DNA of 64,000 bases from Fidelibacterota bacterium (GTDB lineage Bacteria > Fidelibacterota > Fidelibacteria > Fidelibacterales > Fidelibacteraceae), in NCBI GenBank assembly GCA_029931905.1, contig JAOZRH010000001.1, forward strand, positions 19,031 through 83,030, written 5' to 3'. The notes under the pieces were generated by a model. The model saw only the letters and a list, made by a program, of their open reading frames with translations, had not been told where the DNA came from and did not search any database. Shown here in pieces: positions 1-11,749 of the stretch; position 1 is the first letter of the stretch, and each line of letters starts with the position of its first letter. A program made the translations under genes and the position numbers.

Positions 1-1
1 A

Positions 2-910
2 TCAACACAGTTCAATGTTATACGCAATGCTTCCGGTTTTATAGAGTTTAATCACCCACTAACTTCAACCGAACTACATAAACTTAAGAAAAATAAACAA
101 AAATGTCATTCTAAAGAATTGATTCAGGACTTAGATTTGTCAGAAGAAGTAAAAAAGAGATATTATTGCCCTTATGACAAAGCAATAAAAACATGTAAAC
201 AAAAAGCACGAAATAAATTTAGATTAAGTTTAACTAATGAAGTTGTTTTTAATGTATATTTACAGGGATTTACAGAAATACAATATATTATTAAACATTT
301 ACAATATTTTAATGATTTGGCATTTGTCCACAAAGGGCATAAAATTCAAATATTTAAAAAAATAGATAGTGTTATTATTGGTGATATTGGATTTGGTGTA
401 GAGTATATGGTAAGTAGTGTGTATGACAAATTGTTATTAGAATATGTTGAAACTTTAAAAAATATTTATCCATTTACCCATTTTAATTTAACGAATTTAA
501 TATTTAATTTTTATTTAATTTACAAAAGTTCTAATAGTGATAGTAAAGAATTTTTAAGTTATTTAACATTTTTACATTTTGAATTGATTAAGTCTATATT
601 GGTTAATAAGTATTTTACTTCTTGTAAAACAGATGAAGTAGTTGAGCAATTTTATACAGGGAGATTAGATACAGTAGTGATGGACCAAACTGAGCTATTA
701 ATGGTTTTTTTAAATGGGATACATTCTTTACCAGATAATGATACTGAGTTTACAAGTTTTATGGTAGGGTATTATAAGATGTTTGTGTATATAAGGAATT
801 TATTAAACCGTGAAGTAAAGAAGTGTGCACAAGATTATTTTCATACTAAGATAAATCGGATAGACATAGTGAGTTATGATAAGGAGTATTGTGATCAATA
901 TGTGGGATAA
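2..910 (+). CDS. hypothetical protein, 5' partial
   Basis: Track ORF 119..910 starts at a TTG, but the same frame has no stop of any kind back to nt 2. It ends TAA at 908-910 and has no in-frame TAG. Confidence 0.6.
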   Translation, partial: STQFNVIRNASGFIEFNHPLTSTELHKLKKNKQKCHSKELIQDLDLSEEVKKRYYCPYDKAIKTCKQKARNKFRLSLTNEVVFNVYLQGFTEIQYIIKHLQYFNDLAFVHKGHKIQIFKKIDSVIIGDIGFGVEYMVSSVYDKLLLEYVETLKNIYPFTHFNLTNLIFNFYLIYKSSNSDSKEFLSYLTFLHFELIKSILVNKYFTSCKTDEVVEQFYTGRLDTVVMDQTELLMVFLNGIHSLPDNDTEFTSFMVGYYKMFVYIRNLLNREVKKCAQDYFHTKINRIDIVSYDKEYCDQYVG

Positions 911-1142
911 TAGATATAAGAAGTTACAATTTTTGGCTGAGTGTAAGCACAATGATAATGTAAGGGTGACGGAGTTAATGGAGAAGGGTCATATTACACA
1001 GAGTGAAGGTAAGGTAATTCATCAACGCATTTTAAATTATTACAATGCAGATATTAGCATAGGTGATATTAGATATGCTATTAATAAGGGGAGTAAATGT
1101 GGTGGACAAATATCAGAAGATGATAATGGAGTTACAAAATAA
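876..1142 (+). CDS. small hypothetical protein (alternative start ATG 900 preceded by AAGGAG at 881-886)
   Basis: Track ORF with TAA stop that overlaps the end of the upstream gene. It shares a '...YYN' C-terminal pattern with the next small ORF. Confidence 0.5.
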   Translation: MIRSIVINMWDNRYKKLQFLAECKHNDNVRVTELMEKGHITQSEGKVIHQRILNYYNADISIGDIRYAINKGSKCGGQISEDDNGVTK

Positions 1143-1314
1143 TATTAAGAAGCGTAGATCAGAGGCTATATTATTAAGAGATCAAGGTTTTATTACCACA
1201 GAGATGTTACAAAGGTTATATACTAAGATTAATGATTATTATAATCCTTCTATCGAAGCTATCAGAGAGCAGCAGAAAATATATTATAGAAAGACATGCA
1301 CAATAACCGAATAA
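1063..1314 (+). CDS. small hypothetical protein, paralog-like of 876..1142 (real start probably ATG 1120 or 1126)
   Basis: Track ORF with TAA stop. 'GFITTEMLQRLYTKINDYYN' resembles 'GHITQSEGKVIHQRILNYYN' in the upstream ORF. Confidence 0.5.
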   Translation: MILDMLLIRGVNVVDKYQKMIMELQNNIKKRRSEAILLRDQGFITTEMLQRLYTKINDYYNPSIEAIREQQKIYYRKTCTITE

Positions 1315-1440
1315 TAGCATGACAGAATAACCTAAATCTTATAGGAAATAAATGTTATAATATTGAGTTTAATTAATATGATATATCTATAGTAGGTATA
1401 TAGGATAATAAATATAACATGGAAGAATAGGGTTTATAAA

Positions 1441-1635
1441 ATGGTATTAGAAGAAGTATAGGGGCGTATTGAGAATGAATTGGAGAATGAGGGTCTAAAT
1501 ACAGAAGATATAGTTGATTATGAAGTTGAAATGGATTTAGGGGAGGTCTGTCATAATCAGGGTATTATAGACACATTTGAAGTAATGATAGATAAGAAGG
1601 ACCGGATAGTAAGGGTTATGATGGAGCTATATTAA
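1441..1635 (+). CDS. possible small acidic protein (64 codons) containing one in-frame TAG
   Basis: ATG at 1441, TAG at codon 7, TAA at 1633-1635 three nt before the helicase ATG. It is missing from the track because of the TAG. Confidence 0.35.
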
Positions 1636-1638
1636 TAT

Positions 1639-4600
1639 ATGTTTTGTTTAATACACAAGAATAAGTTTGATGGTAAGTTAAAGGGTATGGTTCATCAGGT
1701 AATATACGAGAATGATCATACCTTTTTCTTTCCAAGGCACATTAGACGTTATTATGATTATTCTTATATAGATGGTTGGGTAGATCCTAAGTTTAGTATA
1801 GTAAAGCCAAAGGAGTTTAAGTTTACATCTAAGTTAAGGGATGCACAGGTAGATATGAGTGCTGACATATTTGATTCCTTTGCAGAAACAGGATATATTC
1901 ATGGTATTATACAGGCGAGACCGGGAACTGGTAAATGTTTTAAGATTGATACACCTATATTAATGTATGATGGGTCTATTAAGATGGTTCAGGATATTAT
2001 TAATGGTGATCTTGTTATGGGACCGGATAGTAAACCAAGAATTGCATCTGGTGTTAATGTTGGGTATGGTGATATGTATGAAGTAATTCCTGATAAGGGG
2101 GATTCATTTACATGTAATTATGATCATATACTGAGTTTAAAAAGTTCATATCATGATAGTAAACAATATCCATTTGATTCTATAACAAATATATCTATTA
2201 AGGATTATCTTAAGCAGACAAATAGATTTAAAGCTAAGATGAAGTTATGGCGAACTGGTGTTGAGTTTCCTACAGTAGATATTCTGTTTGATCCTTATAT
2301 TATTGGTGCACATTTAGGTGATGGTACTAAGAAAGAAATTTGTTCAATTAGAAATGATTTTAGATTTTATGTAAAAGAACATTTAATAACTGAGAATAAT
2401 GAACGTAATATACCTAACGAATATTTAATTAATGATCGTGAAGTACGGTTACAGTTATTAGCTGGTATTATTGACACTAATGGTAATTTAAGTTCTGATG
2501 GATATGAAGTATTTTGTAAGGATGAACATTTTGCTGATCAGATTTGTTTTTTAAGTAGAAGTCTTGGGTATGCATGTTATAAAAAAGAAAAGGTTATAGG
2601 AACTGAAATCCATTATAAATGTTTTATATCTGGTTATATTAATGAAATTCCTTGTGAATATAAGAAAGCACCAGAATGTAAGCAAATTAAGGATGTATTA
2701 AAAACTGGTTTCGAAGTTAAATATATTGGTAAAGATAATTATTATGGATTTACATTAGATAAAGATCATCTATATTTGATGGGAGATTTCACAGTAACTC
2801 ATAATACAGTATTAGGGATTTATTTAGCACATAAGTTAAATGTTGTTACTTTAATAGTTATAGACAATAAGAAGATTGTTGAGCAGTGGATAGATGAAAT
2901 GCTTAGACATACAGATTTAGAAAGGTCTGACATTGGTACTATTAAGGGTGATGTATTTGATGTAGATGACAAAGTTATTATAGTGAGTACTCCACAGACT
3001 TTGAGCAGCAAATTTAAGAATGCTAATAAAACATTTTATCCTAAGTTCAGGGATATTGGTGTTGGTTTGGTGATATGGGATGAATGTAAGTCTGGTGATA
3101 CAGAATTATTAACGGAACATGGTTGGCAGCGGTTTGACAAATTGGATAAGAGTGTTAAGGTTGCACAATTCAATCATATTACCAGAGAGATTTCTTTTGT
3201 AAAGCCATTACGTTATATTGAGAATGATTATAAAGGTAAGTTGGTTCATCTTAAGAGTAGAAATATTGATGATTTATCAACACCAAATCACGAACAACCA
3301 TTATATCTTAGTGGTAAGTATGAAAAGAGAATAGTAGATAATGTAAAATTTAATTATTATACAAAAATACCTATACATGGAAAAGGTGTAGGGGATTTAG
3401 AGTTCACAGATTACCATAGATTCCTTATTATGTTACAAGCAGATGGTACCATTCAATACGAAACTAAAGATGGGGATCATTATCAAGTATGTTTTACTTT
3501 TAGTAAACAGCGTAAAATTGATAGATTAAAGCAATTAGTTGAGTCATTAGGTTATTCGTGGGGAATTTCCAATGATACTGGTTCTATTAATGAGAATGTT
3601 AAAGACCGTACTCGATTTATGATATATCCAAAAGACAGAATGTATAAGCATTTTAATGAATGGCTTGATATATCAAATATTTCATATGAGTTTGCTAATA
3701 AGTTTATTAATGAACTTGTATTGTGGGATGGTAGTACTAAAGGTGGTAATTTATATTATTCTACTACAGATAGTGGTAATGCAGATATTGTTCAAATAGT
3801 TGCATTATTTGGTGGTTACAAATGTTCACGTGGTATACAGATTGATAATAGGAAAGAAAGTTATAAAGATGTTCATAGGTTTTATTTTTATAAAGATGTG
3901 GATGCTGCTACACAGAGTATAAAAAAGGATTACGTTGATTATGATGGTAAAGTATATTGTGTGACGGTGCCAGATGGTAATATTATTGTAAGACGTAATA
4001 ATAAAGTTTCTATTACTGGTAATTGTCATGTAATAGCGAATGAGTGGGCAGCAGGATCTTTATTATTTAATACCCCTAATTTATTAGGTATGAGTGCAAC
4101 CCCATGGCATGGTAAAGACAAAGAGATTTTAATGTATTCTATATTTGGTGAAGTAGTGACTAAGTATGGAGAGTACGATTTTTCTCCTAAATATAAAATG
4201 GTTGAGTATGATTCTCTTACAGGTGACAAGGATGGTAAGAGGGTGAACTATTTATGGAAGAATAACTTTAATATGGCACGATCAGTATATAATAGGGTTT
4301 TATTAAAGAGTAAGGCGTGGGTTGATATATGTGTAGAGATTATGAAGTACAATATGGAAGCTGATCCTAATAATAGAATGATTGTTATAGTTTTTACAGA
4401 GAAGCAGATAAATGTGTTATATGATGCAGCAATTAAAGCTGGGTTAGAACCTATCAAATTTTATGCAAAGCAACGGGAAGTTGATAAGGATAAAGATAGG
4501 TTATTGATTGCAACAATGGCATATGGTAGTAAGGCATTTGATTATAAGCAATTAAATCGTATGTTATTGGCTATTCCTATATTAGGTAAGAAAGCAATGG

Positions 4601-4791
4601 TACAATCCATAGGGAGGATTTTGCGTGAATGTTCAGGTAAAGTAGATGCTGAAGTTTGGGATTTATATGATATGGGGTCTGGTTACCGGGGATTATTTCT
4701 TAATACTATAGATCAGAAGTTAAGAATTATTAACAATGAGTATGATGATGTAATCATTGAAAGAGGTAGCATAGAACATTTAACGAAATAA
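1639..4791 (+). CDS. SF2 DECH-box DNA/RNA helicase precursor with two inteins (spliced extein about 447 aa)
   Basis: Motif I is ARPGTGK|T, restored after removing intein 1. Motif II is VIWDE|CH, restored after removing intein 2. Motif III is MSATP and motif VI is QSIGRILRE. The 1050 codons contain no in-frame TAG and end in TAA. Confidence 0.9.
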   Translation: MFCLIHKNKFDGKLKGMVHQVIYENDHTFFFPRHIRRYYDYSYIDGWVDPKFSIVKPKEFKFTSKLRDAQVDMSADIFDSFAETGYIHGIIQARPGTGKCFKIDTPILMYDGSIKMVQDIINGDLVMGPDSKPRIASGVNVGYGDMYEVIPDKGDSFTCNYDHILSLKSSYHDSKQYPFDSITNISIKDYLKQTNRFKAKMKLWRTGVEFPTVDILFDPYIIGAHLGDGTKKEICSIRNDFRFYVKEHLITENNERNIPNEYLINDREVRLQLLAGIIDTNGNLSSDGYEVFCKDEHFADQICFLSRSLGYACYKKEKVIGTEIHYKCFISGYINEIPCEYKKAPECKQIKDVLKTGFEVKYIGKDNYYGFTLDKDHLYLMGDFTVTHNTVLGIYLAHKLNVVTLIVIDNKKIVEQWIDEMLRHTDLERSDIGTIKGDVFDVDDKVIIVSTPQTLSSKFKNANKTFYPKFRDIGVGLVIWDECKSGDTELLTEHGWQRFDKLDKSVKVAQFNHITREISFVKPLRYIENDYKGKLVHLKSRNIDDLSTPNHEQPLYLSGKYEKRIVDNVKFNYYTKIPIHGKGVGDLEFTDYHRFLIMLQADGTIQYETKDGDHYQVCFTFSKQRKIDRLKQLVESLGYSWGISNDTGSINENVKDRTRFMIYPKDRMYKHFNEWLDISNISYEFANKFINELVLWDGSTKGGNLYYSTTDSGNADIVQIVALFGGYKCSRGIQIDNRKESYKDVHRFYFYKDVDAATQSIKKDYVDYDGKVYCVTVPDGNIIVRRNNKVSITGNCHVIANEWAAGSLLFNTPNLLGMSATPWHGKDKEILMYSIFGEVVTKYGEYDFSPKYKMVEYDSLTGDKDGKRVNYLWKNNFNMARSVYNRVLLKSKAWVDICVEIMKYNMEADPNNRMIVIVFTEKQINVLYDAAIKAGLEPIKFYAKQREVDKDKDRLLIATMAYGSKAFDYKQLNRMLLAIPILGKKAMVQSIGRILRECSGKVDAEVWDLYDMGSGYRGLFLNTIDQKLRIINNEYDDVIIERGSIEHLTK
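1936..2805 (+). mobile_element. intein 1 (290 aa) inserted in the helicase Walker A/P-loop, with a LAGLIDADG-type homing endonuclease remnant
   Basis: Starts with Cys right after GTGK (CFKIDTPILMYDG). Block B-like TCNYDH is present. LAGLIDADG-like IIGAHLGDGT and LLAGIIDTNGN are present. Ends ...FTVTHN followed by Thr (+1). Confidence 0.85.
3085..4023 (+). mobile_element. intein 2 (313 aa) inserted in helicase motif II (DE|CH), with a LAGLIDADG-type homing endonuclease domain
   Basis: Starts with Cys after VIWDE (CKSGDTELLTEHG). Block B-like STPNHE is present. LAGLIDADG-like FLIMLQADGT and NELVLWDGST are present. Ends ...VSITGN followed by Cys (+1), which regenerates DECH. Confidence 0.8.
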
Positions 4792-4842
4792 GGAATGTCT
4801 TGTCTGTTCAGATTTGAATTAATTATAAAAGATTAACTAACT

Positions 4843-4858
4843 ATTGGTAAATTAAATG
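4843..4858 (+). promoter_or_regulatory. initiation-region motif ATTGGTAAATTAAATG (includes the start codon)
   Basis: The same 16-mer occurs at 24327-24342. Close variants lie at 15949-15965, at 32659-32673, and on the minus strand at 37611-37626. Confidence 0.5.
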
Positions 4859-6121
4859 ATATATTCAAGAGCAGACAAGGTTGAACAATATCTATCCCAT
4901 TATAATATCACTGGGGTAGAAGCTTAGAAGGGCAGTTGGAACACACGTCTTTATCTAACGAACATCCATACCAATAAGCCATATAAATTAGAGATCCAGA
5001 ATCCTCTTTATAATATTTTATCAGGGGAGGATAATCATCATGAGTTTGATCCAAAGTCATTAAATGGTCATAATTATTTATTACGAAATATGATATTTGA
5101 TTATACAGATGTTGGGATGACAGAGTTTATTGCTAATTTTCTTAACACAGAGTATTATAAGCGGTATGGTACATTAGAGCATGAAGCAGGGAAGAAATAG
5201 TCGAGTGAATATTTTTCTTTCTTAGAGATGAAAGATATAGAATTGATTAAAGGTTTAGCCGGTTTCAAGGATAATGTTATTACTGGTGTATATGGTAATT
5301 TCTTTACCATGGATGATGACACATTGAGATTTACATTTAAGCCTACCACACCTATTGTTGAGAATATTAACAAGGTTCATTTTGCCCAATCCTTTATATT
5401 TACCAAGGATGGATGGCAGTATCCCACATATTACATTATATATACTAAAAAAGGATCAACAGATGTTTAGTTTGAGTAGACTAATTTATTAGTTAATTCA
5501 ATTACTAACAATGGATCTGTTGTTGTTAATTTATCACAGTTATTTGGTGATAAGTGGACAGACATTTCATCTGATATGGATACATTATCTGGATTTGGTA
5601 CAGAATGGTTTATTGTGCCATCCTTATTCACATGTGCAATTATGCGGAACACACCTACTGGAATATTACGATACATTCCCATTAATTTTACAAAACAATT
5701 TTTTAATATTACATTTAATAATATGGATATTGAAGCAAAGGCTATAAGGGATGGTGATAGTGGTGAATAGATAAACACTGAACCCAATTTTAATGATAGT
5801 AATGCAGTATTAGAGGTAATTGATAACACTTCGTCGGAATAGACAGAATCAAAGAAGGCTTCCTTTGTATATAAGGATGATCGTATAGTTCCTTGGTCAA
5901 GTATGGAGCATGTTGAATTTTTAGATCAGTTATTAAAGTTGTCAAGTACAGCAGAATATTTTAATGATGTATTATTTTCATTAGAGGATTCGGAGTTTCA
6001 GTTTCCTATATATTTAATTACACCGATAGATAACGAAGTGAGTCATGGACCTTATGGCACTTAGTTTAATGACGATTATATTGACAATGTTGGTGTAGTA
6101 AGCGTGGGTGGTGGCGAATGA
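4856..6121 (+). CDS. hypothetical protein, 421 aa, 7 in-frame TAG
   Basis: ATG at 4856. Track ORFs 5228..5470 and 5576..5770 share the frame and are joined only by TAG. The terminal TGA at 6119-6121 overlaps the next ATG (ATGA). Confidence 0.8.
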
Positions 6122-6633
6122 TTTATAAATGGTATATAAATAATGATTTTAAGTTATTGGTAAGGACGTGGGTATTTTTAACAATGGATATGTACGTAAT
6201 GTCATTTAAAGATCCTAACACAGATTATTTCTATGATCAGTTGTCAAGTAAGTTATTTAATAATGAACAAGATATTGACGTTATGAAATATTGGTATAAT
6301 CCAGTTAAGATGGTGGATGTTGTTGAAAGTGTAACACAGAAGACAGAAACAGACATACATGTTGGTAAGAAGAATTATACAATGATTCACATTCAGTCAC
6401 ATGAAGATATTTATAATATGTCATTTTCTTCTGATATTAAGGATGTTTTCATAGTGTAGATGAAACGTTTTGATAAAGACAATTATCTGGCACCAGTATG
6501 TATAAGGGTTGATGAAGAATGGTTAAATTATTATGAGCACAACCTTGATTTAAGTAATTTATTACAAGAGAGAAGTAATGTAAGTGATGTCAACAATTTG
6601 TTATCTAATTTTAGAAAAGCAATATTCATATAA
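6118..6633 (+). CDS. hypothetical protein, 171 aa, 1 in-frame TAG
   Basis: Track ORF 6118..6459 continues past TAG 6457 to TAA at 6631-6633. Confidence 0.75.
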
Positions 6634-6645
6634 GGGAAAAATATA

Positions 6646-7275
6646 ATGCAAGAATTTAATGTAGATTTAGGGACTAAAGAGATTTACAGTCTTAAGAATT
6701 AGAGCTTTGATATTGCTAATAATGGATCAGCAGATTTATCAGTTGATTCTATTAACTTGTCAAGTGATAATATCGTTATGACATTTACAAAGACACCATT
6801 TTAGATTATTCAGAATATGACATATTCTTTATCGGGATATTTAAAGATATTGACATTTGAAGATTCTACTGCAGTAGATTATATTGAATGTGATGTATCA
6901 TGGTTAGACGAATATGGTGATACACAGACTGATGTTTACCGGTATTATTTAAATTACGTTGGTTCTATTAATCATCAGTATGTTCAGACCTTTGATATAA
7001 GGAATATAAACTACATTAAAGACATGTTGGTGATCCGAATGGATTTTAATGAGGCATTTCCAGATCAGAATTATCCAAATATGATAATAAAAGCAATTGA
7101 TTCAACTCCATATCATATATTCCCTAAGATATATAGAATGAGCGCAACGTCAATTGTGTATGTATATAAGGACAATGATATAAATAATATAATAATTGAT
7201 GACAAGATTCAGATGAATGTAATATTTAATCAACCTGAATTGGATATTCATAAAATTTCATATAGGTCAATATAA
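6646..7275 (+). CDS. hypothetical protein, 209 aa, 2 in-frame TAG
   Basis: ATG at 6646 preceded by GGGAAAAA. In frame with track ORF 6817..7275. TAA stop. Confidence 0.75.
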
Positions 7276-7276
7276 C

Positions 7277-10200
7277 ATGATAAGTTTTCAGTCAGATAAT
7301 TTAGATTATAGAATATACAAGGTGGATGATTTTGATATATCACTCCACATGAATAGTGAGAAACTTGATCATATTTTTAAAGAGTATCTATATTTCACAT
7401 TATCAGAGATGATTGGTGATGATGGTTAGGTGGCGTTTAATTATGAATTAAGGACTGATAAGCTTGATGATTTATATAAAGACGAAGTTCTTGGATCAGT
7501 TTTAATTTTTTGGTTAAGTTATCATTATATTTTAGATATTCTTAACATGTCAAAAATACAATTGATATCAAGTGTAAATCATCCAAATTTTGTTCATCTT
7601 TATTTTAACCAGAAAATAACAGATTCTACTTATGGTATATTAGCAAATTATAATAAGGGAACAGAATTTTATACAGATCACATTTTTGGTTTACGAAATC
7701 TTAAGTATAGTACATATGATGTACAGGAACAATCCAGATCTTGGTTCATGACAAACGAAAAGACTGAATTCACAAAGTATTTGGGCAATAATATCACTAT
7801 AATCACTGAAAATTTTATTACTGATCTGGATAAAGAACAGGCAATGGATAATATATTTGGTGCATATACTGGTACTGGTAATGATGTTACAATCATTTTA
7901 AAAGAAGATATAAAGAGTGCATTGCGGTTTGGTTTTACATTAACAATGAATGGACTTGAATATACAATTATATTCTCAACGAATTAGAACAATTACATTA
8001 TTGCTAATCGATTAAAAGAATTATTTAAGTTAATGGATACCAGAGTTAATAATGTAATCTGGAAATGGAAAGAAATTTCATATTTATATGTAGAAGACAC
8101 GGACTTTGTGACCGATTATATTGATCCTGAGTTTAAAGAAGGGAATATAATTGTTGCAAATTCATATGTAGATACATGGGTTAAGAATAAATATAATGCC
8201 GGATCTACTGTATTTAATTAGCAACCAACATTTGATAATGCTGTATTTGATATATTAGATGATATAAAAATGTTTGTTGATGAAATTGGTAAAGGGATTG
8301 TATATTTTGATTTTGATAATACAATGTTACATACTACTATTGGTAATCAAGATGATTACAGTTTTTTAGATATTTATGGATATGACGAAGAAAGACAAAG
8401 ACCGATCCTTCTTGGTATAAATAAGGACTATGAGAGCGCGGGTAGTTAGTTTAGATCAATTAAAGTTATATCAGGCGGTATTACAGCAATAAACAATGAC
8501 GAATTGGTTAATGACATGACATCGGCAGACTATGAATATCTAATGCAGACTACATTAGTAGATGTTAAGCACATTCATTATATGGACATGTTTGCTATGA
8601 TAGCAGATGTATATGGCTTTACACCACGAACACCAACAGCATTTCAGTTATTTAATCCAGTTGATAGTGATAGAAAATTCTTTTATAATGATGGTGAATA
8701 TGATGCAAAAGGTAAAACCATTGATGCATAGGTTTATAAACAAAGTAAACCATATGATCAAACTACAACCGAATCATTATACGTTTTTACAATGAAAACA
8801 TTTATAATTGAACCCTTATCAAATTGGAATGGTGATAGTAGTTAGGGTAAGATACGAGATATTGAATTTAGATTAAAAGGTGAGAAAGTCGAAATTCCAT
8901 ATGAACAAATTACGGATTTTGGATATGATGATATCAGACCTATTATTGTTAATAGTTATAAAACTGGCTGTCAGACATCATCATCAAATTATTTCAATTC
9001 ATATAATAATATGAGATCAGGTATTCATTTTGATCCCCCAATTCAATTCGATCAACTTATTATTAATAATTACCATTGTAATGGCGGTGATAGTAATTTT
9101 GGTATAGCAAATTGTAGATTTTTAATAGCAGATTTTAAATTTGAAGCAGATGGTTTTGAAGAATCTTCACATTTACTTGATTTAATATTTGAAGGAGAAA
9201 TAAGAGAACACATTCCATCTAATACCGCAGATGATATAATTATACCATTAACTATACCAGCTTCAATTACTGATAATACATCTGTCCCAATGTTTACATT
9301 ACTTGATGTTGCATCATTTGGATTAGATCAGACTGATACAAATTCATGTGCTATTCCATATGATGCCATTATATCACTATTTAACGATGTAACAGACGAA
9401 GGATCAATGTTAGAATTTATTCATGAATGGTTTTAGATTGATGGTGATTCAAATGAGATTTCGTTTGATGCAGTAGAATATAATAATTTATTTATAAAAT
9501 ATGTTCCAATTGTATCAGGAAATGGAATGTTTCATATTTCTCACAGAAATAGTGTTGTTGGTTATCGTACTATCAATGATAGATTGTTACATGCATTGTC
9601 ATTGGATGTAAAGAAAGATATATTAGAAGATCTTTGGAATGACACTGATAATATGGTCAAATATAAATGTTTAATAGGAACAGATGTTATTACACAGATT
9701 AATGATGATAGTGAATTTAATACAAATGTCAATTGGTCCCGTGATATATTTACTAATGGTGTTGAACTAAAAGAATTACATACATTGTCAAATTCAACTA
9801 AGTCTGAGTTCCTTTCAATGTTAATGAATGAAAATATGTATCATAGTGCCATAGAATTGTTTTCTGGAAGATATATATGCGCATTATTTAAATTAGAGGA
9901 TGTGATACAAAACTCATACAACAATTCTATTATTTTTAATAAGGTTATTGGTAGTGATTAGTATTCATATTATAGTTTGAAATCTACTGGTAATGATATT
10001 ACATTTTCTGGATATTTCATTAGTTCATATACGGATAATCATTATGCATGGTGGTTACTTGATCTTGATAATGGTAAGATTAAAAATATTGCAACAACAC
10101 CTTTTGAATTTAATGCCGGGACCACGAATCCTATTATTACAAATTTGGAAGTTATTGAAAATAGGGAATTGTATGTAGTTGATAAAGCAGACTATGATAC

Positions 10201-10348
10201 AATTTATAATAACTGGTTAAATGTTTTCAAGATTTATGATATTTTGCCAGTATATCAGATTGTATATGCAAGGAAACCATTCGATATTACAAAGAATCAA
10301 ATTTTCAACGTTTATGCAAACGAATACACATTAGTAAGTGAGGTATAA
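7277..10348 (+). CDS. large hypothetical (virion-type) protein, 1023 aa, 8 in-frame TAG
   Basis: Track ORFs 7430, 8033, 8504, 9011, 9527 and 9977 are all in one frame with only TAG between them. ATG at 7277, TAA at 10346-10348. Confidence 0.85.
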
Positions 10349-10351
10349 TCA

Positions 10352-10774
10352 ATGGATTATGGACAGTTAAAAGATATTGTTAGTGTTAAGAGTTTTAATA
10401 TTATTTAGAATTTGATCAATCGACCAAGATTAGAATTATATACAACTAATTTTACTAATTTAGATGATTCTATAAATGTAGATGACCCATATGATAATGA
10501 TGTGGTTGACATGACCAGTATCACACAGGATGAACTAACATTTATAAAAGAAGTGGATTGCATTTATACATATGACAAGGAAGTTATCACAAGCAATGAT
10601 GATAGTTTGGGGTCTATATATTCATTAATGATTTATATGAGATCTGATGATGTTCCATCTTATATTTTGAATAGTAAGAATTCTATTATAGTCAGGTTTT
10701 CGGGTATTGATTATAAAGCAACAAACTTTCAAAATGCATATGACATTATTGTTCAAGCAACCTTAAAAAGATAA
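10352..10774 (+). CDS. hypothetical protein, 140 aa, 1 in-frame TAG
   Basis: ATG at 10352, in frame with track ORF 10412..10774. TAA stop. Confidence 0.7.
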
Positions 10775-11749
10775 TGACATATTACAAATACTTTTATTTT
10801 TCATGATATGAATATGGTTGTATAGGTGCATATATCTATTTTTAAAGGCATGTGCTTCCCTATACCCAATTTTTTGTTTAATGAAGTCTATTAATTCAAG
10901 ATAGTTTGTTGTATATCTCAATTTTTCAATAAAGTCATTAGATAGATTAGTGTGTTTATTAGATTTAATGAATCTATGCATTAATTTCCATGATTTTAAA
11001 TATACATTGCTACAAGGGAAAGTCTTTTCTTTATCAAATCCAAACACGATCATATCATTATATATAAATGTATTAATCTAAGCAAAGTCAACATTACCGA
11101 TCAAAAATTCAAATGCAACTTTGTCATGCCATAGTGGATCAGTCTGAGATACCACCGATAATAGGTGTGATACATCTTTATGATAATGACCACAAATTGA
11201 AGTTGGATACATATATTGTAAATCTTTTGAAATATATGTAAGTTCATTGTTTACATTTCTAATTGTTCCATGTGCTAAGTGTGATAATCCTAATAATTTA
11301 GCAACAGCAAGTGCAGCCATTTCACGATATGCACTAAATCCTTTTAATCCAACATTCTAATTTAAATTCCCTGATAATAATTGATTAAACCGTTGATTAT
11401 ATTCAGCAATAGTAAGAAATTTGTTATTTTTATTTAATCCCAAATACTCATGTCCAAATCCTATTCTCTTATGTCTTGTAATTAGACCATCTGATTTTAT
11501 TGGTTTTGAATATGCTGTGACTATTTCATCAGTAGTTGGTGATATTAATTTTATTTTAAAACAGTTTGATCTATATGTTATTTTATCTGGTTTATTAGAC
11601 AATCTTCTGATCATATTTGATGTAGAATTTTCATAAAAATTAGGATCAATATCCTATGTACTTAGAATTGGATCAAGAGTTTTCCATATAAATGATTTAT
11701 CTGGATCAATATTAATACTTTCCATATAAGAGTGATCAATTATTTTCAT
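10763..11749 (-). CDS. hypothetical protein, 328 aa, 3 in-frame TAG; weak PI3/4-kinase- or HipA-like motifs
   Basis: Track ORFs 11357..11614, 11078..11320 and 10763..11053 share one frame and are joined by TAG. The upstream in-frame ATG at 11749 overlaps the end of the previous gene. Motifs SAYREMAALAVAKLLGL and FLIGNVDFA(TAG)IN are present. TAA stop. Confidence 0.7.

What the first reader, a model, noticed from the sequence alone, without database searches (positions are those of the whole stretch)
3085..4023. Second intein in the same helicase, inside motif II (DE | CH), with an atypical C-terminal Gly-Asn
VIWDE is followed by a 313-aa insert that begins with Cys and ends ITGN, followed by Cys-His. 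Excision regenerates a DECH box. Two inteins hitting the two ATPase catalytic motifs of one protein is a notable density of selfish elements. The penultimate residue is Gly rather than the usual His, which in other inteins affects Asn cyclisation. LAGLIDADG-like motifs (FLIMLQADGT, NELVLWDGST) lie at normal spacing, so the endonuclease may be active.
Basis: partly seen in the sequence, partly recalled or inferred. Interest (0 to 1): 0.6.

Follow-up and report, generated by a model that had tools for sequence, protein, structure and literature searches.

The report
Phage helicase intein ending Gly-Asn
The insert is a real, apparently intact mobile intein sitting in the DExH box of a phage-type helicase, and its odd-looking Gly-Asn ending is the normal signature of a large, already described phage intein family, so it is an ordinary new member and not an anomaly.

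Summary
Window 3085-4023 encodes 313 in-frame residues that start with Cys and end ITGN. They lie between VIWDE and CH of a 1050-aa SF2 (ResIII) helicase. That helicase also carries a VMA-type intein in its P-loop.

The insert is an intein. Full-length homologues (E down to 1e-114) sit inside unrelated host proteins. Intein-free orthologues of this helicase are colinear across the site. An AlphaFold model (pLDDT 96) matches intein homing endonucleases such as PI-PfuI, PI-SceI and TliVMA.

The "atypical" Gly-Asn is the family rule: 223 of 225 surveyed relatives end in GN. Two relatives have published biochemistry. Both splice efficiently, and changing Gly to His slows or abolishes splicing. They are mycobacteriophage Bethlehem gp51 and the AceL NrdHF intein (PDB 6zgq).

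The DE|CH site is also this family's favourite junction (131 of 225). The two-intein layout recurs in at least five other metagenomic helicases.

One thing is worth noting. Every member keeps both Cys1 and a block-F Cys, and the closest solved relative uses that block-F Cys as a class 3 nucleophile. The splicing route of the Cys1-bearing members is therefore an open question.

Verdict: new member of a known kind, modest interest.

The parts
1639..4791 (+). Helicase precursor ORF: 1050 aa, made of a 447-aa SF2/ResIII DExH helicase extein plus two inteins
   Evidence: The spliced 447-aa extein gives one contiguous ResIII match (profile positions 3-162 of 164, E 3e-20) and a phrog_16 DNA helicase match at E 2e-42. 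The unspliced protein gives only a partial ResIII match (E 2.5e-9). There is no in-frame TAG.
1936..2805 (+). Intein 1 (context only): 290 aa in the Walker A motif, GTGK|C...THN|T
   Evidence: Pfam Hom_end_hint E 5e-18. The segment is absent from the intein-free orthologues P0128-P0131 and from P0008/P0009 in the alignment.
3079..3084 (+). Asp-Glu of motif II / Walker B (N-extein residues -2 and -1)
   Evidence: Read directly from the sequence. DE precedes the intein in 92 of 120 family members.
3085..4023 (+). Intein 2, the finding itself: 313 aa, Cys1 to Gly312-Asn313
   Evidence: Full-length homologues sit in unrelated host proteins. The boundaries are shared precisely. AlphaFold model pLDDT is 96.3.
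3085..3396 (+). N-terminal half of the splicing (HINT) domain, about residues 1-104. Block A is CKSGDTELLTEHGW (3085-3126). Block B is TPNH (3280-3291; Thr66, His69).
   Evidence: In the family alignment C1, G13 and H69 are invariant and T66 is 99% conserved. The model is all beta-strand over this stretch.
3397..3897 (+). Nested double-motif LAGLIDADG homing endonuclease domain, about residues 105-271. Motif 1 is FLIMLQADGT (3421-3450; Asp120 at 3442-3444). Motif 2 is NELVLWDGST (3709-3738; Asp215 at 3727-3729).
   Evidence: D120 is conserved in 119/121 members, D215 in 120/121, K144 in 120/121 and K188 in 119/121. Foldseek matches the core to I-DmoI (TM 0.55-0.60 on the target). Pfam LAGLIDADG_3 is below threshold (E 0.006).
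3898..4023 (+). C-terminal half of the HINT domain, about residues 272-313. Block F is VYCVTVPDGN (3952-3981; Cys292 at 3958-3960). Block G is SITGN (4009-4023; Thr311, Gly312, Asn313).
   Evidence: C292, G312 and N313 are each conserved in 121/121 members, R303 in 119/121 and P296 in 114/121. This stretch aligns to FH(C124)LSVPG...SVTG(N) of the AceL NrdHF intein 6zgq.
4024..4029 (+). Cys+1 and His+2 of the C-extein. These are the x and H of the DExH box, and Cys+1 is the splice-junction nucleophile.
   Evidence: The +1 residue is Cys in 108, Ser in 10 and Thr in 2 of 120 members. Intein-free orthologues read DE-AH, DE-VH or DE-MH at this position. Intein-bearing orthologues read DE-CH.

Best explanation
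Window 3085-4023 encodes a functional, mobile, endonuclease-containing intein. It belongs to a large phage-borne family defined by Cys1, block B T-x-x-H, an invariant block-F Cys, a V-P-x-G kink and a C-terminal Gly-Asn. It is translated in frame inside the helicase, between the Glu and the x of the DExH box.

While the intein is present, the Walker B / motif II strand is interrupted by 313 residues. The P-loop is interrupted by intein 1. The precursor should therefore be inactive as an ATPase.

I infer that splicing follows the standard four-step route:

1. Cys1 forms a thioester with Glu-1.
2. Cys+1 takes over the N-extein.
3. Asn313 cyclises and releases the intein. It does so without the usual penultimate His, because this family's active site is built around a Gly at that position.
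4. An S-to-N shift gives VIWDE-CHVIAN.

The invariant Cys292 lies between the two junctions and assists.

At the DNA level, the nested LAGLIDADG enzyme cuts intein-free DExH alleles of related helicases in co-infecting phages, and the intein is copied in by repair.

What is shown here: identity as an intein, the boundaries, family membership, retention of every conserved residue, the existence of empty alleles, and discordant intein and extein histories. What is inferred: actual splicing, the route of splicing, and endonuclease activity.
For: - Different hosts. Full-length homologues at 30-34% identity (E down to 3e-47) lie inside ribonucleotide reductase alpha and beta, NAMPT and DNA primase in deposited phage genomes. 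Further records hold it in RtcB, PhoH and a phosphoesterase, and the Lak-C1 copy reads as a ClpX-like ATPase. The metagenomic protein set gives 290 hits at E<=1e-5. The representative library gives 3016 hits at E<=1e-10.
- Boundaries. 120/120 members start with Cys, 120/120 end in GN, and the +1 residue is C, S or T in 120/120. An independent set gave 105/105 Cys1 and 103/105 GN.
- Extein restored. The spliced 447-aa protein gives a single full-length ResIII match and a phrog_16 helicase match.
- Empty sites. Orthologues P0128-P0132 (44-51% identical) are colinear across both insertion points and read DEAH, DEVH or DEMH.
- Mobility. Intein and extein identities disagree. P0034 is 63% identical in the extein but 42% in the intein. 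P0009 is 39% in the extein but 60% in the intein.
- Fold. The AlphaFold2 model has pLDDT 96.3 and pTM 0.93. Foldseek gives TliVMA E 2e-12, PI-PfuI 4e-11 and PI-SceI 1e-9, with the endonuclease core matching I-DmoI.
- Intactness. The window copy keeps the family consensus at every position conserved at 85% or more, except F107 where the family has Leu.
- The GN ending works. Bethlehem gp51 (block F/G VWCLRVPNG...LTGN|S) splices to completion, and G316H causes precursor to accumulate (PMC5050341). In AceL NrdHF, G145H abolishes activity (PMC7891396).
Against: - No experiment bears on this copy.
- Curated profiles barely see it. Pfam Intein_splicing scores 17.5 bits against a cut-off of 35.8. TIGR01445 and TIGR01443 give E 0.12 and 0.37.
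- The Arg at block B:11 that compensates for the missing His in AceL NrdHF is Glu70 here. That position is variable across the family: E 48, D 29, R 22. How Asn313 cyclisation is catalysed in this copy is therefore unknown.
- The closest solved relative uses the block-F Cys, not residue 1, as its first nucleophile. The class 1 route is an assumption based on the presence of Cys1.
Confidence: 0.6

Rival explanations
1. It is the same intein, but the invariant block-F Cys292 is a covalent nucleophile. Either it attacks the Glu-1/Cys1 bond directly, as in class 3 inteins, or it receives the acyl group from Cys1 and relays it to Cys+1. In the second case splicing runs through three successive thioesters.
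For: - Cys292 is conserved in 121/121 members and is never Asp, which is the usual class 1 residue at F:4 (PMC4031507).
- The HINT-only profile of the family hits the AceL NrdHF class 3 split intein (6zgq) as by far the best solved structure. E is 2.2e-15 over the whole domain. The next hit, KlbA, is at 7e-7.
- Foldseek also ranks 6zgq first among mini-inteins, with TM 0.83 on the target.
- AceL NrdHF has Ala1, an M-C-T triplet and a TGN ending. Its C124A and C124S mutants are dead (PMC7891396).
- The family's commonest residue at B:12 is Met (32/121) and at G:5 is Thr (67/121). This is the same M-C-T pattern.
- In a FastTree of HINT halves, AceL NrdHF nests among Cys1-bearing RNR-beta members, with local support 0.82-0.83.
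Against: - Cys1 is equally invariant (225/225). A pure class 3 route would not need it.
- The class 3 Trp at B:12 is absent; this copy has Gln71.
- The +1 residue is Cys, whereas class 3 inteins typically have Ser or Thr.
- Kelley et al. treated the related Bethlehem gp51 intein as class 1 (PMC5050341).
- The tree is short (about 140 columns), AceL sits on a long branch, and deeper support is weak (0.3).
Confidence: 0.3
2. It is a decaying or splicing-dead intein. The helicase gene would then be a pseudogene, or would yield only an inactive precursor.
For: - A near-identical metagenome contig (L007) carries a 134-bp deletion across the C-terminal junction of intein 1. The deletion frameshifts the gene, so disrupted versions of this gene exist or are assembled.
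- No splicing data exist for this copy.
Against: - All family-conserved splicing and endonuclease residues are intact in this copy.
- The ORF runs 1050 codons without a stop in 28.5% G+C DNA, p about 7e-42.
- The deletion affects intein 1 in another assembly. It does not affect intein 2 in this window.
Confidence: 0.06
3. The insert is a conserved non-splicing accessory domain of this helicase family.
For: Orthologues P0008, P0009, P0010 and P0034 carry the insert at the same place.
Against: - Equally close orthologues lack it entirely (P0128-P0132).
- The same 313-aa unit, with the same termini, occurs in at least ten unrelated host protein families.
- Its fold is HINT plus LAGLIDADG.
Confidence: 0.01

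Closest known systems
AceL NrdHF-1-1 class 3 split intein (PDB 6zgq; Hoffmann et al. 2020, PMC7891396)
   Same: - It is the best solved-structure match to the family's HINT profile, E 2.2e-15 over the full domain.
- Block B is S/T-P-N-H.
- Block F is x-x-C-x-x-V-P-G.
- The ending is T-G-N.
- It has no His at F:13 or G:6.
- It comes from a phage-like metagenome contig.
- It nests among RNR-beta-hosted members of the family in the tree.
   Different: - AceL starts with Ala, not Cys.
- It is naturally split and has a separate GIY-YIG gene instead of a nested LAGLIDADG domain.
- It has Ser+1.
- It has Arg at B:11, where this copy has Glu70.
- It lies in NrdF, not in a helicase.
Mycobacteriophage Bethlehem gp51 (RDF/metallophosphoesterase) intein (Kelley et al. 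2016, PMC5050341)
   Same: - It has Cys1.
- Block F/G reads VWCLRVPNG...LTGN followed by Ser.
- It has a penultimate Gly and a nested LAGLIDADG endonuclease.
- It is about 317 aa.
- It is experimentally splicing-competent, and G316H is slower.
   Different: Only the last 30 residues align by BLAST (40% identity, E 3e-6). The N-terminal half and the host site (GNHD|C) differ.
Mycobacteriophage cluster A1 TOPRIM/primase intein (for example BillKnuckles gp54)
   Same: It is a full-length homologue at 29.8% identity (E 1e-25). It starts CLRGDAEVLT, contains VYCVSVP and ends SVTGN|C. It is catalogued in PMC5050341.
   Different: The host is a primase active site (EGE|CD), not a Walker B motif. As far as I could read, its splicing has not been tested.
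Cyanobacterial DnaX (PolIII gamma/tau) Walker B intein
   Same: It is inserted immediately after the Walker B acidic residues of a P-loop ATPase (PMC4760082).
   Different: It belongs to a different intein lineage. The Spl DnaX mini-intein 7cfv matches only the N-terminal half, at E 0.0024. Its host is an AAA+ clamp loader.
PI-SceI, PI-PfuI and TliVMA (intein-encoded LAGLIDADG endonucleases)
   Same: The overall two-domain architecture is the same. Foldseek gives E 2e-12 to 1e-9 and TM 0.61-0.68 on the query.
   Different: Sequence identity is 9-15%. These proteins are larger and carry extra DNA-recognition regions. They have a penultimate His and Asp at F:4.

Membership tests
Intein (HINT splicing domain) | N-terminal nucleophile (Cys or Ser) at residue 1 | tested here: met
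   Cys1 is TGT at 3085-3087. It is conserved in 225/225 relatives.
Intein (HINT splicing domain) | Block B T-x-x-H | tested here: met
   Thr66-Pro-Asn-His69. In the family T is found in 120/121 and H in 121/121.
Intein (HINT splicing domain) | C-terminal Asn followed by Cys, Ser or Thr at +1 | tested here: met
   Asn313 followed by Cys+1. In the family N is found in 121/121, and +1 is C, S or T in 120/120.
Intein (HINT splicing domain) | Penultimate His (common but not obligatory) | tested here: not met
   The residue is Gly312, which is invariant in the family. Published relatives with Gly splice well (PMC5050341, PMC7891396).
Intein (HINT splicing domain) | HINT fold | tested here: met
   The AlphaFold2 model has pLDDT 96.3. 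Foldseek hits are solved inteins. This is a prediction, not a solved structure.
Intein (HINT splicing domain) | In-frame insertion at a conserved host site, with colinear intein-free homologues | tested here: met
   Alignment with P0128-P0132. A contiguous ResIII match appears after in-silico splicing.
Intein (HINT splicing domain) | Self-catalysed protein splicing | not testable with these tools
   This needs a reporter assay or junction-peptide mass spectrometry.
Double-motif LAGLIDADG homing endonuclease | Two dodecapeptide motifs, each ending in an acidic residue followed by Gly, at the ends of two packed helices | tested here: met
   The motifs are ...LQAD120G and ...LWD215G. Model helices 109-120 and 201-215 end at these residues. 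The Asp residues are conserved in 119/121 and 120/121 members.
Double-motif LAGLIDADG homing endonuclease | LAGLIDADG alpha-beta-beta-alpha-beta-beta-alpha fold | tested here: met
   Foldseek matches I-DmoI over about 168 columns, TM 0.55-0.60 on the target, E about 2e-5.
Double-motif LAGLIDADG homing endonuclease | Site-specific cleavage of the intein-free allele | not testable with these tools
   The only support is indirect: discordant intein and extein identities and the existence of empty alleles.
Class 3 intein | No Cys, Ser or Thr nucleophile at residue 1 | tested here: not met
   Cys1 is present and invariant.
Class 3 intein | Trp at block B:12 (the W of the WCT triplet) | tested here: not met
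   The residue is Gln71. The family has M 32, Q 29, L 24 and I 21 at this position, and never W.
Class 3 intein | Cys at block F:4 | tested here: met
   Cys292, conserved in 121/121. It aligns with C124 of AceL NrdHF.
Class 3 intein | Thr at block G:5 | tested here: met
   Thr311 in this copy. Only 67/121 family members have Thr here.
Class 3 intein | Block-F branched thioester intermediate | not testable with these tools
   This needs mutagenesis and trapping of the intermediate.

The most novel reading that the evidence does not exclude
The Cys1 / block-F Cys / Gly-Asn inteins, including this one, may be a dual-nucleophile family in which the block-F Cys is covalently involved in splicing. 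It could act as a relay or as a parallel class-3-type route. If so, this family is the living intermediate from which at least one class 3 intein (AceL NrdHF, Ala1) arose by simple loss of Cys1. That would bridge class 1 and class 3 chemistry. It would also bear on the published suggestion that class 3 inteins have a separate, protease-like origin (PMC7664689).
Probability: 0.3. Interest if true: 0.55.

Novelty: new member of a known kind. Interest (0 to 1): 0.3.

Why it matters
**Annotation.** The 1050-aa ORF is an intact 447-aa DExH helicase carrying two inteins. It is neither a giant novel protein nor a broken gene. Standard intein profiles (Pfam, TIGRFAM) score this family below threshold, so such inteins are easily missed in phage metagenomes.

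**Biology.** The helicase cannot bind or hydrolyse ATP until both inteins leave. Helicase activity in this phage is therefore gated by two independent splicing reactions.

**The family.** It is large: about 3000 clusters at 50% identity score E<=1e-10. It prefers the tetrapeptide DE|CH in unrelated ATPases and a similar acidic-Cys-x-His site in RNR beta. It always keeps two cysteines around the N-terminal junction. Its solved relative splices within minutes. Members with Cys+1, like this one, could therefore be useful starting points for protein-ligation tools and for testing how class 3 splicing evolved.

Tried and rejected
- **Curated profile searches.** Pfam and NCBIfam searches of the insert gave only sub-threshold hits: Intein_splicing E 0.004, LAGLIDADG_3 E 0.006, TIGR01445 and TIGR01443 E 0.12 and 0.37.
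- **Origin of the window.** Megablast of the gene against 50,697 phage records found nothing.
- **Single-sequence search of solved structures.** phmmer of the insert against the PDB found only the Mja KlbA intein weakly. The link to AceL NrdHF appeared only with a HINT-only family profile.
- **Literature.** Tori & Perler 2011 on class 3 variants is not held. A search for the WCT-plus-Cys1 intein that I half-remembered returned nothing, so I make no claim from it. I found no paper describing a DE|CH allele in a phage ResIII helicase.
- **Thiol distances.** Model coordinates are not exposed, so I could not measure the Cys1-Cys292-Cys+1 distances.
- **Explanations rejected.** The accessory-domain and chance-ORF explanations are rejected (see rivals). 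A class 3 assignment is rejected on membership, because Cys1 is present and the Trp is absent.
Full report
**1. The observation**

The ORF at 1639-4791 (+) encodes 1050 residues. The reading at the site is:

- GAT GAA (Asp-Glu) at 3079-3084
- TGT (Cys) at 3085-3087
- GGT AAT (Gly-Asn) at 4018-4023
- TGT CAT (Cys-His) at 4024-4029

At the window's composition (28.5% G+C, stop frequency 0.086 per codon), an open run of 313 codons has p about 5e-13.

**2. The host protein**

I cut out both candidate inteins in silico: residues 100-389 and 483-795. This leaves a 447-aa protein. It gives one contiguous Pfam ResIII match (profile positions 3-162 of 164, E 3e-20) and a phrog_16 DNA helicase match (E 2e-42). 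The uncut protein gives only a fragmentary ResIII match (E 2.5e-9).

A search with the spliced extein found orthologues of 436-443 aa (P0128-P0131) and a shorter, partial one of 328 aa (P0132), at 44-51% identity. They carry neither insert. In the alignment they run straight through both sites and read GxGK-T/S and DE-AH, DE-VH or DE-MH. Orthologues that carry the second insert (P0008, P0009, P0010, P0034) read DE-CH. The Cys is therefore the x of a DExH box, and it co-occurs with the intein that needs it as a nucleophile.

**3. The insert is an intein**

Curated profiles are nearly blind to it. Pfam Intein_splicing scores 17.5 bits against a cut-off of 35.8. LAGLIDADG_3 gives E 0.006. TIGR01445 and TIGR01443 give E 0.12 and 0.37. 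Homology is decisive.

- tblastn against 50,697 phage records finds 382 records, 277 with at least 80% coverage. Identity is 22-34% and E reaches 3e-47.
- In those records the unit lies inside ribonucleotide reductase alpha and beta, NAMPT, DNA primase, RtcB, PhoH, a phosphoesterase, a nucleotidyltransferase and DNA polymerase.
- PHROG families for RNR, PhoH and ThyX match the insert because they contain the same element.
- I read five of these copies directly. Each begins with Cys, and each ends x-Gly-Asn followed by Cys or Ser.
- The metagenomic protein collection gives 290 hits at E<=1e-5.
- An exhaustive scan of 1.84 billion cluster representatives gives 8213 hits at E<=1e-3, 3016 at E<=1e-10 and 397 at E<=1e-30.

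An AlphaFold2 model built on 94 relatives has mean pLDDT 96.3 and pTM 0.93. Foldseek against the PDB returns endonuclease-containing inteins first: TliVMA 2e-12, PI-PfuI 4e-11 and PI-SceI 1e-9, with TM 0.61-0.68 on the query. It then returns I-DmoI for the endonuclease core.

**4. The Gly-Asn ending**

Among the 120 best relatives:

- 120 start with Cys and 120 end in Gly-Asn.
- The +1 residue is Cys in 108, Ser in 10 and Thr in 2.

In 105 further representatives from the independent scan, 105 start with Cys and 103 end in Gly-Asn. The penultimate Gly is therefore a signature of the family and not a deviation of this copy.

It is also already in the literature. Kelley et al. 2016 noted that mycobacteriophage class 1 inteins often lack the penultimate His. 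They showed that the Bethlehem gp51 intein, with a native Gly, splices to completion, whereas G316H accumulates precursor (PMC5050341). I read gp51 directly. Its block F/G is VWCLRVPNG...LTGN|S, the same type as here.

Hoffmann et al. 2020 showed that G145H abolishes activity in the AceL NrdHF intein. The introduced His clashes with a block B residue, and a Pro-Gly kink in block F rearranges the site (PMC7891396). This copy has the same V-P-x-G.

**5. The insertion site and the two-intein layout**

DE|CH is the commonest junction of the family: 67 of 120 and 64 of 105. It occurs in many proteins that carry the ResIII/DEAD/Helicase_C Pfam domains. Other hosts carry AAA+/clamp-loader-type, RuvB_N, PhoH, AAA_30/RecD-type and SNF2 domains, by precomputed Pfam accession. 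An unannotated ClpX-like gene of Prevotella phage Lak-C1 carries it at IVFLDE|...TGN|CD. In RNR beta the junction is usually RDE|C-x-H.

Inteins just after Walker B are known, for example in cyanobacterial DnaX (PMC4760082). ATPase motifs are recognised intein hot spots.

The pairing of a VMA/Hom_end_hint-type intein in or next to the P-loop with a GN-type intein at DE|CH recurs in P0034, P0031, P0078, P0017 and P0047. I found no paper that lists this specific phage helicase allele. The allele may therefore be uncatalogued, but it is not a new kind of site.

**6. Is it alive?**

The window copy has the consensus residue at every family position conserved at 85% or more, except F107 where the family has Leu. 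This includes:

- C1, G13, T66 and H69
- D120 and D215, the acidic residues that close the two LAGLIDADG motifs
- K144 and K188
- C292, P296 and R303
- G312 and N313

Intein and host histories disagree. P0034 has the most similar extein (63%) but a 42% identical intein. P0009 has a 39% identical extein but a 60% identical intein. Intein-free alleles occur at comparable extein distances. This is the pattern expected of an element that still moves by homing. G+C content is unremarkable: intein 30.1%, extein 33.0%, window 28.5%.

**7. Mechanism**

I commit to the ordinary reading, at 0.6. Cys1 forms the first thioester. Cys+1 takes the N-extein. Asn313 cyclises without a penultimate His. The DExH box is then re-formed. 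The helicase is inactive until both inteins have left.

One feature is not explained by that reading. Position F:4 is Cys in 121 of 121 members, never the Asp usual in class 1 inteins (PMC4031507). A profile of the HINT halves alone finds the AceL NrdHF class 3 split intein (6zgq) as by far the closest solved structure. E is 2.2e-15 across the whole domain, and the next hit is KlbA at 7e-7. Foldseek agrees, with TM 0.83 on the target.

That intein has Ala1, an unusual M-C-T triplet, no His at F:13 or G:6, and a T-G-N ending. Its block-F Cys124 is the essential first nucleophile (PMC7891396). In the family studied here the commonest residues at B:12, F:4 and G:5 are also M, C and T. In a FastTree of HINT halves, AceL NrdHF nests among Cys1-bearing RNR-beta members with local support 0.82-0.83. 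The branch is long and deeper nodes are weak.

This intein fails the class 3 definition, because it has Cys1 and lacks the Trp. It nevertheless belongs to the lineage in which a class 3 intein arose. Whether Cys292 is a covalent participant here is open, and I put that at about 0.3. The Arg (B:11) that helps Asn cyclisation in AceL is Glu70 here and varies across the family. The compensating group in this copy is unknown. The near-invariant Arg303 is a candidate, by inference only.

**8. Context and side observations**

Earlier first-stage notes say this genome reads TAG as a sense codon in late genes and that the replication module avoids it. I confirmed only that the helicase ORF has no in-frame TAG.

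A JGI metagenome contig (L007) is 100% identical to window 1-2690 and 99.7% identical to window 2825-10814. It lacks window 2691-2824. These 134 bp span the C-terminal junction of intein 1, and their loss splits the gene into two called ORFs.

**9. Verdict**

The features flagged as unusual are normal for a large, partly characterised phage intein family. This is a new member of a known kind. Interest is modest, apart from the open question about the conserved second cysteine.

Noticed in passing
window 2691-2824 versus L007 3055/3056: A near-identical JGI metagenome contig (sample 3300005264) lacks these 134 bp. The deletion removes the last 115 nt of intein 1 and 19 nt of extein. It frameshifts the helicase into two called genes. 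The junction shows only short A/T-rich similarity (ATTAA / ATTTATT). It could be a real defective variant or an assembly artefact.
   Followed up: partly
window about 5050-5075 versus L007 about 5281: The same contig comparison shows a second difference of about 23 nt (an indel or substitution) in the intergenic stretch downstream of the helicase.
   Followed up: no
window 12786-62263 (ten ORFs of 303-878 aa): None of the ten largest other ORFs matched any PHROG or Pfam family. The gene also has no megablast match among 50,697 phage records. Together with earlier notes of TAG recoding, this points to a very divergent, low-G+C (28.5%) phage lineage.
   Followed up: partly
L008 (Prevotella phage Lak-C1, MK250029.1 61116-62060, minus strand): An unannotated ClpX-like AAA+ gene of the Lak-C1 megaphage carries a member of the same GN intein family in its Walker B motif: IVFLDE|CFDGNTEVMT...VTVTGN|CDKIARK.
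   Followed up: partly
L009 (Klebsiella phage fENko-Kae01, ENKO_296): A gene annotated as a hypothetical protein is a metallophosphoesterase-like gene split by the same intein family at PGNH|C...SITGN|C. The site is analogous to that of the Bethlehem gp51 RDF intein.
   Followed up: no
family-wide (P0008-P0245): The same intein family sits at the same short peptide, Asp-Glu | Cys-His, in non-homologous hosts: SF2 helicases, AAA+ ATPases, PhoH, RecD-like proteins and ClpX. In RNR beta it sits at Asp-Glu | Cys-x-His. This suggests either ectopic spread guided by a short GAYGAR-TGYCAY-like target or a splicing preference for Glu-1/Cys+1/His+2.
   Followed up: partly
window 1936-2805: Intein 1 (Hom_end_hint type) has relatives at slightly shifted P-loop positions in other double-intein helicases: GK|C...HN|T, TS|C...HN|TGKT and TA|C...HN|SGKS. 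One intein lineage therefore occupies neighbouring sites within the same motif.
   Followed up: partly
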